Assembly (NCBI RefSeq): GCF_009914755.1
Contig: NC_060941.1
Source: the human T2T-CHM13v2.0 reference genome, Homo sapiens
Strand: one strand, 5' to 3'
Length of the DNA: 64,000 bases
How positions within the stretch are numbered: the first letter of the stretch is position 1; the number at the start of each line of letters is the position of its first letter. The position numbers and the translations under genes are program-made. The notes beneath the pieces are model-generated. The model searched no databases, was not told where the DNA came from, and worked only from the letters and a program-made list of their open reading frames with translations. Of this stretch, positions 54,181 to 58,053 are shown piece by piece.

Positions 54181-57100
54181 CCCACCCCCTGGACCCTGGG
54201 AACGTTCATGAGGGGGCGGGTCTTGGGGGGTGTGTTAGGGGGGTTCTTCACGGCGGAAGTTGTCTGTATCCCACCGCCTGGCCTTGGGAGCCTTCTGGGA
54301 CTGCTTTGTGGGTTGGGGGGCTGCTGATAGTATGAGTTTTACCGAGGCTGCAGGTTTTGCTCCCATGTCGGTGACGGAGGGAGGAGTGGTCGCTGTGGTG
54401 ATTTGTGTGCATCAGCCAGCCAGGTGTCTGTGACAGTCGGATGACTTGGAAGCCTCCCCAGGCTGACCATGGCAGGACTCAGGGAGCTGTAGTGGTCGGG
54501 GGTTGGGGGGGTGGAGGGGGTCTGGTGACCGGCACAGGTGCAGGTGAGGGGTGGAATTCTTCCAAGAGGGATGGTCAAGCTGGGACGTTGAGACACAGGG
54601 GACAGAGGACACTGTGTGACACGATTTACAATCTTTCCACACTGGGCACCGTCCCCATCAGTCCACCCATTCGGGGCCTACACGAAGTGGGTCCCATGCA
54701 ATCCATTCCCTCAGGGAACTCAAACTCCAGCCCCTGGGATGAGAAGAATCCAGCAATGCTTGGGAGAGCCAGAGGACTTCATGGAAGAAGTGTCCTCTGA
54801 GATGGAAGGATTGGGAGTCCAGGGTGGTGGGAACAGCCGGCCCTTGGGTCCTTACTTCAGGCGGGGGAGCCATGGAGAGATCCCACCAAGGGAAGGCTGT
54901 GGGAGATTCTGCCTTTCCTCCCTGCCTCTGCCCAGGGTGCTGGGTGTGAACTGAGGGTGGGGTGACTGTTGAAGGTTCTAACAAGCCGTCTCTGAGAGAT
55001 TTGTAGCTAGGCTAGTGTTAGGTCTTTCATTTCAGGAACTGTGTTCAAAGTTTGGCTTCTGAAGGGCACCAGGAGAGAGATGTTGCTATTCAAATCTGAG
55101 GGTCCAGTCTCTGCGGGGTGGTATGAGGGTTTGCTTGTGAATGGTGGCCAGTACCCGCTTTAAAAGGCACCATGCTAGCACAGCTTTAAGCATGAGTACG
55201 AATGCAGAGGTAACAGATGTGTGCCTTGTCAGGACTATGCATGGTTGAGAAGTTGGAAATGTAATTGGAGGCAAAATAACAGACCTCCACAAGGTCGGGC
55301 TTCACTGTGCCCTAGGACCAGGAGGGGGCTGGGAGTCATGGCTAGAAGCCAGACACAACTGCCTGTTTCCAGTTTGTCTCATTTTGCCTCCAGAGGAAGG
55401 CTCTAAGACATCCCTGTGGCTCTGTGATCAGTCCCAGTGCAGAACTTCAGAGTGGGTAGAGGGGTGTGTGGGGATAGTTGAGGTTATGGTGGGAACCTTG
55501 GGCCCTGCTGACCCTGTTTCCTCCTCCCTAGCCTTTATCCTCCTCTTCTACCTCGTTTTTTATGGGTTCCTCACCGCCATGTTCACCCTCACCATGTGGG
55601 TGATGCTGCAGACTGTCTCCGACCATACCCCCAAGTACCAGGACCGACTGGCCACACCGGGTGAGTGTGGAGGCTCCCCCTGCCAGCTACTCTAACTGCT
55701 CTTGTGCCCCCAAACCTCCAGAAGGAACTCATAGTTCCTTCCAGGAGTTTGATTTTGATGACCCAATCCCCACGTGCTTGGAAGTTCTTGAAATCTGTCC
55801 ACCTTCCCATTTACTGCAGTTGGGAGCTGTGTGATTTGGGCATGTGGCAGATAGCCACAGGAGATCACCCTCCCATGAAGACGATCTCAGATATTCACCG
55901 CTGTCCCCACTCTGGTGTTCCCTGTGTCCATTTTCTTCCCTCTGTGTGCAGTCCCTCATCTTATAGATACCCCCAACTTCTGCCTTTGTTGGCTGTAGGC
56001 TTGATGATTCGCCCCAAGACTGAGAACCTTGATGTCATTGTCAATGTCAGTGACACTGAAAGCTGGGACCAGCATGTTCAGAAGCTCAACAAGTTCTTGG
56101 AGCGTGAGTGTGGGCCTGGTTATGTGTCAGTTCAAGACTTCGGGCAGGGGACTGGGGACCTTGGAAGTGGAACATCTGGCCCCTGAGTCTCTCCCTCCCA
56201 CCTCTTTAGCTTACAACGACTCTATCCAAGCCCAAAAGAATGATGTCTGCCGCCCTGGGCGCTATTACGAACAGCCAGATAATGGAGTCCTCAACTACCC
56301 CAAACGTGCCTGCCAATTCAACCGGACCCAGCTGGGCAACTGCTCCGGCATTGGGGACTCCACCCACTATGGTTACAGCACTGGGCAGCCCTGTGTCTTC
56401 ATCAAGATGAACCGGGTATCTATGACCTTGGTCCCCAGGGTGAATGGAGGAAGGATCTGGGGACACCACCTGCAGACAATTGCATCCTTTCACTGGGGCT
56501 AATGGGCATGAGAAAGACTTGGATGTTTGTGTAGCTGAGAGAAAAAGAGAGGTGGGACTCTTGGAGGCTAAGCTCTGCAGTTAGAAGGCTGGATGCCTTT
56601 TGTTTTTTTTTTAGACAGGGTCTTGCTATGTTGCCCAGGCTGGCCTTGAACTCCTGGAATTAAGCTATCCTCCTGCCTCAACCTCCCTAGTAGTTGGGAC
56701 TACAGTCCCCGGCTTAGCTTGGTCTGGATGCCCATCTTCGACAACTTCTTCCTCTGACTCTCTTCACCTTCCACCCTCACTCCAGGTCATCAACTTCTAT
56801 GCAGGAGCAAACCAGAGCATGAATGTTACCTGTGCTGGGAAGGTGAGTTCGTTGGGCCTTGTCTGCCTGCTCACCTGAGTGGCTCACCTGAGTGTCCTTC
56901 ATGGTTTCTGTGTAATTCACCTGTCTCTCCCTATCTTCTTTGCTCCTAGAGGCCCCATCACCATAGAAACAAGGGGGTAAGAGTGGGCTTTTGGGCTCCA
57001 CTGTAGCTTGAACTCCGAGGGCCCCGCACTCCTCTTGCTTCTCTCTGGGATGCAGAGGCCTGCTCTCCTAGGGGCCAGACACACGCCCTCCTCCACCAAC

Positions 57101-58053
57101 GCCCTGGCCTCTGGCTTCTCTCCCTAACGCTTCCACCTTCTCCTTCATTCCCAGATTGTCCGTATCGTTCGCTCTCCCTCCCATATGGCCCCCACCCGTC
57201 AGTTCCTTCTAGGTGTCTGGTAGCTGCTGATCTGTTAGCACCATCTGCCACCAGTTCGTTGTCCTTGGGACCCTGTTCCCCGCTTCCCCCCCGGTCTGTC
57301 CTTTCTAGAAACTGGCTGCTCCCTCCACATCCCCTTCCTTGCTTCCTATTCAACCCTTAATCATGTATCTCTTCTTTCTTGGCTCTGCTCCAGAAACTGA
57401 TTCCTGAGGATGGGGTAAGAACTTGGGGTAGGAGTGGAGTAGGAGGCTTTCGTGCCATTAGCAGCCTTCAGGAGTTCCTAGAATGATGACAGGGACAGAC
57501 CATCCCCTCATCTACACACGCACATGCAGACACACACACACAGACTCACAGCTCCAGGGAGGCAGACTTGAGACAGGAATAATTGGGGCGAAGGAAGAAC
57601 AAAAGAACAAATGGAAGTCTGGTGAGCTCCTGGGTGCCTGCCATCCCTAACTGGCTCACCCCCTATCTTCCTGCACCCCCACAGCGAGATGAAGATGCTG
57701 AGAATCTCGGCAACTTCGTCATGTTCCCCGCCAACGGCAACATCGACCTCATGTACTTCCCCTACTATGGCAAAAAGTTCCACGTAAGTCCCAGGGGAGG
57801 CCCAGGCTGATGGCGGGTGCGGGTGGTGAGCTAGGGAAGGAGGCCGCGTTGCCCCAGGCCTAGACCCTGCACTGCTCCTCCGGCCCAGGTGAACTACACA
57901 CAGCCCCTGGTGGCTGTGAAGTTCCTGAATGTGACCCCCAACGTGGAGGTGAATGTAGAATGTCGCATCAACGCCGCCAACATCGCCACAGACGATGAGC
58001 GAGACAAGTTCGCCGGCCGCGTGGCCTTCAAACTCCGCATCAACAAAACCTGA
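53675..58053 (+). CDS. ATP1B2: ATP1B2 Na+/K+-ATPase beta-2 subunit (AMOG), 290 aa. join(53675-53786, 55532-55660, 55999-56103, 56210-56415, 56786-56842, 57685-57783, 57889-58053)
   Basis: 873-nt spliced [58 protein letters not shown]...YFPYYGKK...[13 protein letters not shown]; type II TM helix, YFPYYG motif. Confidence 0.99.
55532..55660 (+). CDS. ATP1B2: ATP1B2 exon 2 (TM helix)
   Basis: [42 protein letters not shown]; 129 nt. Confidence 0.97.
55999..56103 (+). CDS. ATP1B2: ATP1B2 exon 3
   Basis: [34 protein letters not shown]; 105 nt. Confidence 0.97.
56210..56415 (+). CDS. ATP1B2: ATP1B2 exon 4
   Basis: [16 protein letters not shown]...[11 protein letters not shown]; 206 nt. Confidence 0.97.
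56786..56842 (+). CDS. ATP1B2: ATP1B2 exon 5
   Basis: [19 protein letters not shown]; 57 nt. Confidence 0.97.
56950..56976 (+). CDS. ATP1B2: Candidate ATP1B2 alternative microexon A (27 nt, RPHHHRNKG)
   Basis: CTATCTTCTTTGCTCCTAG|AGG...GGG|GTAAGA; phase 0-0, no stop. Confidence 0.7.
57394..57414 (+). CDS. ATP1B2: Candidate ATP1B2 alternative microexon B (21 nt, KLIPEDG)
   Basis: CTTCTTTCTTGGCTCTGCTCCAG|AAA...GGG|GTAAGA; phase 0-0, no stop. Confidence 0.7.
57685..57783 (+). CDS. ATP1B2: ATP1B2 exon 6
   Basis: [33 protein letters not shown]; 99 nt. Confidence 0.97.
57889..58053 (+). CDS. ATP1B2: ATP1B2 exon 7 (to stop)
   Basis: [32 protein letters not shown]...RINKT TGA. Confidence 0.97.

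What the first reader, a model, noticed from the sequence alone, without database searches (positions are those of the whole stretch)
56950..57414. Two tandem in-frame microexons (27 nt and 21 nt) hidden in ATP1B2 intron 5
Seen: intron 5 is phase 0 and contains two tiny AG...GT segments, 56950-56976 (RPHHHRNKG) and 57394-57414 (KLIPEDG). Both preserve frame, have no stop, follow long pyrimidine tracts and end in the same strong donor GGG|GTAAGA. Both have a UGC 6-9 nt before the 3' splice site, and four UAGs follow exon B within ~70 nt (57429, 57440, 57459, 57479). Known: proximal UGC is the SRRM4/SRRM3 microexon signature, downstream UAGs are the Musashi (MSI1) photoreceptor-exon signature, and ATP1B2 is the retinal Na,K-ATPase subunit that binds retinoschisin. 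I recall retina-enriched Atp1b2 exons being reported, so this may be only partly novel. Inference: neurons or photoreceptors could make 297-, 299- or 306-aa isoforms with a basic, His-rich loop inserted after K203 of the ectodomain, next to C200 and the N193/N197 glycosylation sites. This might tune adhesion, RS1 binding or metal binding.
Basis: partly seen in the sequence, partly recalled or inferred. Interest (0 to 1): 0.8.

Follow-up and report, generated by a model that had tools for sequence, protein, structure and literature searches.

The report
Known photoreceptor microexons of ATP1B2
The two tiny in-frame segments in ATP1B2 intron 5 are real microexons, already published as photoreceptor-specific exons, and what their 16-residue insert does to the sodium-pump beta-2 subunit has not been tested.

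Summary
Segment A is 56950-56976 (27 nt, RPHHHRNKG). Segment B is 57394-57414 (21 nt, KLIPEDG). Both lie in phase-0 intron 5 after K203, each with a pyrimidine tract, an upstream UGC, an AG acceptor and a GGG|GTAAGA donor.

Under thresholds set after the fact, they are the only two such candidates on either strand of the 64-kb window.

They are not hidden. Mouse retina RNA-seq reported both in 2016 (Murphy). ASCOT gives the linked pair a PSI of 95.5 in mouse rods. Ciampi 2022 lists human B as HsaEX7009188, with PSI 50.8 in retina and 0.03 elsewhere, and lists both mouse exons.

Published perturbations of Msi1, Msi1/2 and zebrafish srrm3 each lower inclusion.

Protein databases show an insert at this same junction from sharks to mammals. 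A chimpanzee partial isoform matches the human A+B product exactly.

Two points remain open. I found no direct human retina data for exon A. The function of the insert is untested; it lies inside the predicted membrane-distal "patch I".

Verdict: real, already known, low novelty.

The parts
56786..56842 (+). ATP1B2 exon 5 (57 nt), ending ...CAGK with a phase-0 AAG|GTGAGT donor
   Evidence: Hub annotation. CDS sum of 609 nt and donor match of 9 of 9.
56843..56949 (+). 107-nt intron between exon 5 and microexon A. Holds a CU-rich pyrimidine tract (56927-56946, 18 of 20 Y), UGC at 56941-56943 and a YAG acceptor.
   Evidence: The mouse counterpart intron is 94 nt, by my arithmetic on the rMATS coordinates.
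56950..56976 (+). Microexon A, 27 nt, RPHHHRNKG, donor GGG|GTAAGA
   Evidence: The mouse 27-nt counterpart MmuEX7006831 has PSI 73.3 in retina and 0 elsewhere. Orthologous peptides occur in titi monkey, chimpanzee, bat, seal and horse proteins.
57371..57393 (+). Acceptor region of microexon B: pyrimidine tract (17 of 20 Y), UGC at 57386-57388, CAG acceptor
57394..57414 (+). Microexon B, 21 nt, KLIPEDG, donor GGG|GTAAGA. Equals published human RetMIC HsaEX7009188.
   Evidence: for the sequence. Ciampi Dataset S1 gives 21 nt, PSI 50.82 in retina and 0.03 elsewhere. Dataset S5 places the insertion between C200-K203 and R204-D207.
57424..57481 (+). UAG cluster downstream of B (57429, 57440, 57459, 57479). 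The first two lie in an 11-nt tandem copy, TGGAGTAGGAG x2, at 57424-57445.
   Evidence: (0.62% of 70-nt windows reach 4 TAGs)
57685..57783 (+). ATP1B2 exon 6 (99 nt), beginning RDEDAENLG
   Evidence: Hub annotation

Best explanation
A and B are genuine, evolutionarily old, photoreceptor-specific cassette microexons of ATP1B2.

In rods and cones, high SRRM3 is inferred to act through the UGC just upstream of each acceptor. [quoted passage not shown] Together they would overcome the poor exon definition of 21-27-nt exons. Other cells, including other neurons and glia, skip both exons.

Inclusion keeps the reading frame and adds 9 + 7 residues ([16 protein letters not shown]) between K203 and R204. 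This is a surface loop of the beta-2 ectodomain that tolerates insertions and deletions. Photoreceptors would therefore make a 306-aa beta-2 instead of the 290-aa form, with smaller amounts of single-exon forms.

Shown: the sequence anatomy; published inclusion data in mouse for both exons, in human for B, and in zebrafish for the 27-nt exon; and published loss of inclusion after Msi1, Msi1/2 or srrm3 perturbation.

Inferred: direct binding at these particular motifs; use of exon A in human retina; and any effect on the protein. My best guess for the protein effect is remodelling of the membrane-distal 'patch I' face, rather than of the T240 retinoschisin site.
For: Sequence:.

Mouse:
- Murphy 2016 S3 Table. 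The 21-nt exon reads 0.825, 0.345, 0.83, 0.824 against 0, 0.028, 0, 0.014. The 27-nt exon reads 0.842, 0.746, 0.878, 0.858 against 0.175, 0.184, 0.154, 0.168. The table description says the comparison is wild-type versus photoreceptor-less Aipl1-/- retina.
- ASCOT Supplementary Data 1. The span chr11:69601924-69602330 is exactly the outer ends of the two exons. It has PSI 95.5 in rods and at most 2.9 in every other column.
- Msi1 shRNA abolishes the Atp1b2 rod-specific splicing (figure legend).
- Matalkah 2022 rMATS. The 27-nt exon reads 0.40-0.47 against 0.17-0.24, FDR 0.

Human: RetMIC HsaEX7009188, 21 nt, PSI 50.8 against 0.03.

Zebrafish: the atp1b2b 27-nt exon reads 29.8 against 91.8 at the last time point in the srrm3 mutant data.

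Conservation:
- 49 of 119 usable beta-2-like proteins carry extra residues at exactly this junction, and 44 of these look like a microexon.
- They span shark, gar, teleosts, frogs, lizards, snake, turtle and mammals. A bird was added.
- Chimpanzee 'ATP1B2 isoform 2, partial' (P0036) is an exact substring of the in-silico human exon 5-A-B-exon 6 product.

Loop character:
- Ciampi Dataset S5 marks both flanks as coil.
- Beta-3 and H,K-beta align with gaps here.
- The site lies between patch I regions 198-201 and 213-221.
Against: - Human exon A is not in Ciampi's human RetMIC table. HsaEX7009187 and HsaEX7009189, event IDs I guessed from the mouse numbering, gave 0 hits in 17 files.
- ATP1B2 is absent from ASCOT's human tables: 0 occurrences in files 2 and 3.
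- Ectopic MSI1 and SRRM3 in HEK293 gave delta-PSI 0 for human B, and SRRM4 gave only 7.6-8.1. The gene is poorly covered in those cell lines, with 6 of the 10 experiment columns NA.
- Exon A has no UAG enrichment downstream.
- The peptide evolves quickly. Only 4 of 9 exon A positions are invariant across five mammalian lineages, while the flanking exon sequences differ at only one position each among those lineages.
- I did not see the column headers of the rMATS and zebrafish tables, so the direction of each comparison is inferred from the papers' text.
- No structure model was obtained.
Confidence: 0.9

Rival explanations
1. Only microexon B is used appreciably in human retina. Exon A is a conserved-looking but weakly used or silent exon in people, so the main human photoreceptor isoform has 297 aa, not 306.
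For: The human RetMIC list holds the 21-nt exon only, while the mouse list holds both. ASCOT's human tables lack ATP1B2. Exon A has no downstream UAG cluster.
Against: Exon A has an intact acceptor, UGC and donor, as good as B's. A chimpanzee partial isoform with both exons is identical to the human product. A titi monkey protein carries the exon A ortholog. In mouse, exon A has the higher retina PSI of the two, 73.3 against 59.1. Absence from a filtered list may only reflect coverage or threshold rules.
Confidence: 0.12
2. The exons are truly spliced in, but the inserted peptide has no specific function. On this view it is a tolerated by-product of the SRRM3/MSI-rich photoreceptor environment, sitting in a loop that accepts almost any sequence.
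For: Sequence turnover is fast. Mammals have RPHHHRNKG, fish RYKVGKDEW, frogs RLKSAVNES, lizards KKKTPLDDLI and a bird RPRVKDNLGQTAAS. Insert length ranges from 6 to 16 residues. Paralogs have insertions and deletions in this loop.
Against: An insert at this exact junction persists from sharks to mammals. Inclusion is switch-like, about 95% in mouse rods. Within ray-finned fishes the peptide is well conserved, with an [RKL]Y[KR]VG.DEW-like pattern in most sequences. A basic start is kept in most lineages.
Confidence: 0.3
3. The two segments are chance AG...GT matches or cryptic pseudo-exons with no regular use.
For: Intron 5 holds 25 frame-preserving AG..GT segments of 3-51 nt, so such segments are common.
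Against: Only these two pass the combined filters in the whole window, both strands. 2 of 5000 simulated introns gave two or more candidates. Published PSI values exist in mouse and human. Annotated proteins in other species carry the orthologous peptides.
Confidence: 0.01

Closest known systems
VastDB / Ciampi 2022 RetMIC events: human ATP1B2 HsaEX7009188 (21 nt), mouse Atp1b2 MmuEX7006831 (27 nt) and MmuEX7006832 (21 nt). [quoted passage not shown]
   Same: Same gene, same intron, same lengths (27 and 21 nt), same order, and the same insertion point between K203 and R204. Segment B is that human event. Segment A is the human counterpart of the mouse 27-nt event.
   Different: Nothing differs for B. 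For A, I found no human PSI value in the tables I could read.
Zebrafish atp1b2b 27-nt microexon DreEX0015736, and the 9-residue RYKVGKDEW-type insert of ray-finned fishes
   Same: Same exon 5/6 junction, same 27-nt length, retina-expressed, and lowered in srrm3 mutants.
   Different: No recognisable peptide similarity to [10 protein letters not shown] single microexon rather than a tandem pair.
Other photoreceptor-specific exons controlled by MSI1 and/or SRRM3, such as TTC8 exon 2A, CC2D2A, PROM1, CEP290 (mouse), CASK and DOC2B
   Same: Switch-like inclusion in photoreceptors only. Ciampi and Ling report enrichment of upstream UGC and downstream UAG motifs for the class.
   Different: Most RetMIC genes act in cilium or vesicle transport. 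This pair alters the extracellular domain of an ion-pump and adhesion subunit.
Basigin-2 (BSG), retina-specific exon
   Same: A photoreceptor-only exon that changes the ectodomain of a glycosylated membrane protein (named).
   Different: The BSG exon is long, encodes a whole Ig domain (recalled, not from a call), and responds to PCBP2 rather than MSI1.

Membership tests
RetMIC (retina-enriched microexon as defined by Ciampi et al. 2022) | Length of 27 nt or less | tested here: met
   A is 27 nt and B is 21 nt. The class cut-off is stated.
RetMIC (retina-enriched microexon as defined by Ciampi et al. 2022) | Listed with retina-biased PSI in the published human table | tested here: inconclusive
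   B is listed as HsaEX7009188, PSI 50.82 against 0.03. A is not in the human sheet, but its mouse counterpart is listed, 73.29 against 0.
SRRM3/SRRM4 (eMIC)-dependent microexon | UGC close upstream of the acceptor, next to the pyrimidine tract | tested here: met
   TGC at -9 for A and -8 for B.
SRRM3/SRRM4 (eMIC)-dependent microexon | Inclusion responds to SRRM3/4 gain or loss | tested here: inconclusive
   From published tables only. The zebrafish 27-nt ortholog reads 91.76 against 29.82 in the srrm3 data. Human B: SRRM3 in HEK293 gave 0 and SRRM4 gave 7.58 and 8.11, below the paper's threshold of 15, with 6 of the 10 experiment columns NA.
MSI1-dependent photoreceptor exon | UAG motifs enriched in the roughly 200 nt downstream of the donor | tested here: inconclusive
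   B has 4 TAGs in 70 nt, reached by 0.62% of windows. Over 200 nt it is unremarkable, with 18.6% of windows reaching 4. A has no enrichment.
MSI1-dependent photoreceptor exon | Inclusion falls when MSI1 (or MSI1/2) is removed | not testable with these tools
   Published for mouse: Msi1 shRNA (legend), and the 27-nt exon at 0.40-0.47 against 0.17-0.24. Ectopic MSI1 in HEK293 gave 0 for human B.
Na,K-ATPase beta subunit (Pfam PF00287) | The insert-bearing proteins still match the family profile over their full length | tested here: met
   P0004 scores 362 bits over profile positions 1-284. P0036 scores 170 bits over positions 140-284.

The most novel reading that the evidence does not exclude
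The form of beta-2 that photoreceptors actually make carries a 16-residue loop, basic then acidic, in the middle of the membrane-distal 'patch I' face. The loop changes what the pump's ectodomain binds. Candidates are trans-adhesion or assembly of the retinoschisin / Kv2.1 / Kv8.2 / Na,K-ATPase complex. If so, binding and modelling work that uses the numbering of the 290-aa form misses a photoreceptor-specific determinant. Precise loss of the two microexons would then give a schisis-like or cone-rod-like retinal phenotype.
Probability: 0.25. Interest if true: 0.55.

Novelty: already known. Interest (0 to 1): 0.15.

Why it matters
ATP1B2 is the beta subunit of the photoreceptor sodium pump and the membrane anchor for retinoschisin. 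Mouse rods include the two exons in about 95% of transcripts. The canonical 290-aa protein is therefore probably not the main photoreceptor form.

Two papers on this protein in the retina do not mention splicing. 'splice' occurs 0 times in Plossl 2019, and 'splic' occurs 0 times in the 2025 Atp1b2/Atp1b1 knock-in paper. The exons themselves are old news. The gap is functional: nobody, in the papers I could search, has compared the two protein forms.

Tried and rejected
- **Structure prediction.** I submitted P0004 plus 53 orthologs (alignment A1). The job was interrupted. No model was obtained, so the 'surface loop' statement rests on published annotation and on paralog gaps.
- **Duplication origin of B from A.** The best local alignment of the two regions scored 21, against a shuffle mean of 14.7 and a shuffle maximum of 30. 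There is no signal.
- **Structured RNA in the intron.** Two Rfam matches appeared, both far below their gathering scores: mir-1825 at 20.5 of 70 bits and PART1_3 at 18.7 of 40. Rejected as chance.
- **Full-length mammalian 306-aa isoforms.** The third protein search returned 28 proteins. No further mammalian representative carried both inserts. Clustering at 90% identity can hide isoforms, so this is weak evidence.
- **Human exon A in print.** No human PSI for exon A was found. The event IDs I guessed from the mouse numbering gave 0 hits, and ASCOT's human tables lack the gene.
- **Not seen.** PDF supplements could not be read. These include ASCOT Supplementary Figs 5, 6c and 11 and the Ciampi SI Appendix. 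File 11 of Murphy 2016 was not searched. They may show the Atp1b2 RT-PCRs and state which events had been reported earlier.
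Full report
**What is in the sequence**

- Exon 5 ends at 56842 after 609 coding bases, so intron 5 is phase 0 after K203.
- 56950-56976 (27 nt) reads RPHHHRNKG.
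- 57394-57414 (21 nt) reads KLIPEDG.
- Both follow a YAG acceptor and a pyrimidine tract, 18 of 20 and 17 of 20 Y.
- Both have a TGC at -9 or -8, and both end GGG|GTAAGA.
- The donor is a middling 6 of 9 match to the consensus. That equals exon 4 and is below exons 5 and 6.
- TAGs sit at 57429, 57440, 57459 and 57479. The first two belong to an 11-nt tandem copy at 57424-57445.
- The pair splits the 842-nt intron into introns of 107, 417 and 270 nt.

**More than chance**

Intron 5 holds 25 frame-keeping, stop-free AG..GT segments of 3-51 nt. Only A and B combine a good tract, Y at -3, a UGC and a GTRAG donor of at least 6 of 9. The same filter over the whole 64-kb window returns these two on the + strand and none on the - strand. 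Two of 5000 Markov-1 simulations of the intron gave two or more candidates. The thresholds were set after seeing A and B, so these figures are generous. Four TAGs within 70 nt after B is reached by 0.62% of windows, while exon A shows no TAG excess.

**Already in print**

- Murphy et al. 2016 (PMC4991804; passages and a supplement search). S3 Table lists mouse Atp1b2 exons chr11:69601924-69601944 (21 nt) and 69602304-69602330 (27 nt). Inclusion is 0.35-0.83 and 0.75-0.88 in one group, against 0-0.03 and 0.15-0.18 in the other. The table description says the comparison is wild-type versus photoreceptor-less Aipl1-/- retina. I did not see the column headers.
- Ling et al. 2020, ASCOT (PMC6952364; passages, section 7, Supplementary Data 1 part 1). 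One entry, chr11:69601924-69602330, spans exactly the outer ends of the two exons, as expected for ASCOT's 'linked exons' class. Its PSI is 95.5 in P28 rods and at most 2.9 in every other column. The text calls these 'rod-specific exons in Atp1b2'. A legend says Msi1 shRNA abolishes this splicing.
- Ciampi et al. 2022 (PMC9303857; abstract, sections 5, 8, 9, 12, supplement searches, Dataset S6 part 1). The human entry is ATP1B2 HsaEX7009188, chr17:7655236-7655256 (hg38), 21 nt, PSI 50.82 in retina and 0.03 in other tissues. The two mouse events have PSI 59.06 and 73.29. Dataset S5 places the human insert between C200-K203 and R204-D207, both coil.
- Matalkah et al. 2022 (PMC9509328; passages and a supplement search). 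The mouse 27-nt exon reads 0.40-0.47 against 0.17-0.24, FDR 0. I infer the direction, control versus Msi1/2 knockout.
- Ciampi Dataset S10. A zebrafish atp1b2b 27-nt exon reads 1.65/6.04, 3.94/30.18, 7.42/42.64 and 29.82/91.76. These figures fit mutant/wild-type at 48, 60 and 72 hpf and 5 dpf as described. I did not see the header.
- A search listing also shows ATP1B2 mentioned three times in Ling et al. 2022 on splicing-dependent frameshifting vectors. I did not read it. I recall, without a call, that an Atp1b2 photoreceptor exon is used there.

**Is B the same as HsaEX7009188?**

The identification rests on four points: same gene, same length, same insertion point, and only one plausible 21-nt candidate in the intron. 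From memory only, the hg38 gene end at 7,657,770 minus the 2,514 bases from 59928 back to 57414 gives 7,655,256, which is the published end.

The mouse architecture, from the rMATS coordinates (my arithmetic), is exon 5 (57 nt) - 94 - 27 - 359 - 21 - 300 - exon 6 (99 nt). This mirrors the human 57 - 107 - 27 - 417 - 21 - 270 - 99.

**Conservation tested here**

Three protein searches gave 158 beta-2-like proteins. The first 143 were aligned. Of these, 119 have the flanking columns and 24 fragments or broken models were set aside.

Seventy have no insert and 49 have extra residues at the exon 5/6 junction. I discount five of the 49:
- two intron read-through models (seal P0011, horse P0017);
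- one unrelated 40-residue model (meerkat P0021);
- two one-residue alignment offsets.

The other 44 carry 6-16 residues:

| Lineage | Insert |
|---|---|
| Sharks | AKNEKNEW |
| Gar and teleosts | RYKVGKDEW-like |
| Frogs | RLKSAVNES, KIKLAVNET |
| Lizards | KKKTPLDDLI |
| Rattlesnake | IPRSTQ |
| Turtle | KPVSKLEALNPEMWHA (16 residues) |
| Titi monkey | KPHHHRNEG |
| Bat | RPRHHRDKG ... KPVPEDG |
| Chimpanzee 'isoform 2, partial' | RPHHHRNKG + KLIPEDG |

A stork isoform adds RPRVKDNLGQTAAS. Isoform pairs of one species differ by exactly the insert, for example gar X1/X2 at 299/290 aa and bamboo shark X2/X4 at 301/293 aa.

The chimpanzee protein is an exact substring, residues 136-306, of the in-silico human exon 5-A-B-exon 6 product of 306 aa.

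Across five mammalian lineages, 4 of 9 exon A positions are invariant, giving [KR]-P-x-H-[HY]-R-[ND]-x-G. The HHH run is confined to primates.

**Mechanism**

Ciampi et al. report that UGC motifs upstream of retina microexons mark SRRM3/4 dependence. They also report UAG enrichment downstream, and 71% of human RetMICs respond to SRRM3/4 against 9% for MSI1. Ling et al. find UAG enrichment within 200 nt of the donor of rod exons, with synergy between MSI1 and PTBP1 loss.

The ATP1B2 pair fits both motif patterns, with a UGC for both exons and a UAG cluster for B. Published loss-of-function data point the same way. Ectopic expression did not move human B much, with MSI1 0, SRRM3 0 and SRRM4 7.6-8.1. 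Six of the 10 experiment columns are NA, which suggests too little ATP1B2 expression to judge.

I therefore hold combined SRRM3 plus MSI1/2 activation as the most likely mechanism. Direct binding at these sites is inferred.

**Protein consequence**

No vertebrate beta-2 structure is in the PDB copy. Beta-3, beta-1 and H,K-beta are the nearest. Beta-3 and H,K-beta align with gaps across this stretch, so the loop tolerates length change.

Plossl et al. 2019 (PMC6497308; passages) predicted two surface patches. Patch I lies on the top, membrane-distal face, was proposed as an adhesion interface, and comprises 158-163, 198-201, 213-221 and 246-249. Patch II holds T240, the residue needed for retinoschisin binding. 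These residues match the window's translation.

The insert after K203 falls between patch I regions 2 and 4. That paper uses the numbering of the 290-aa form and never mentions splicing. So the insert more plausibly reshapes the distal face than the T240 site. A conserved metal-binding role for the His run is unlikely, because the run is primate-specific. My structure prediction job did not run.

**What remains open**

- Direct human data for exon A. It is absent from the human RetMIC sheet and from ASCOT's human tables.
- The proportions of the 297-, 299- and 306-aa forms.
- Any function of the insert.

Searches for ATP1B2 with 'microexon', 'splice' plus retinoschisin, 'retina-specific' plus exon plus isoform, and 'alternative splicing' plus photoreceptor returned 2, 6, 3 and 11 papers. 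None is about the isoform's function, judged by title and start of abstract, and by passages for the six papers I opened. Subscription journals and PDF supplements were not searchable.

**Verdict**

The feature is real, correctly read, and already known. The residual interest is the untested function of the photoreceptor form of beta-2.

Noticed in passing
window 57424-57445: An 11-nt tandem copy, TGGAGTAGGAG x2, lies 10 nt after microexon B's donor. It supplies two of the four UAGs, so a small local duplication may have created part of the putative Musashi site.
   Followed up: partly
window 56869-56894: A perfect 13-nt tandem copy, GCTCACCTGAGTG x2, lies inside the short 107-nt intron between exon 5 and microexon A. 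Meaning unknown.
   Followed up: no
window 57514-57550: An imperfect (AC)n microsatellite lies in the intron between microexon B and exon 6.
   Followed up: no
proteins P0019, P0021, P0017, P0011: Several automatic gene models mis-handle this intron. The bat X2 model reads through the pyrimidine tract upstream of B, giving 46 extra residues. A meerkat model has an unrelated 40-residue insert. The horse and seal models read on past exon A's donor into the intron.
   Followed up: partly
proteins P0115, P0126, P0149, P0157: Frog beta-2-like proteins carry an N-x-S/T sequon inside the insert (..AVNES..AVNET..DANET). All four frog models retrieved carry the insert. In frogs the insert may be constitutive and glycosylated.
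   Followed up: no
P0036 against shark beta-1 chains 3a3y_B and 2zxe_B: With both inserts present, beta-2 aligns to beta-1 across this region with almost no net gap. HMMER aligns the insert against a beta-1 stretch on the other side of the conserved Cys, where beta-1 is about as much longer. The long isoform thus brings the region to about the same overall length as in beta-1. This may be coincidence.
   Followed up: no
window 56981-57032: A sub-threshold Rfam match to mir-1825, 20.5 bits against a gathering score of 70, E 0.43. Treated as chance.
   Followed up: partly
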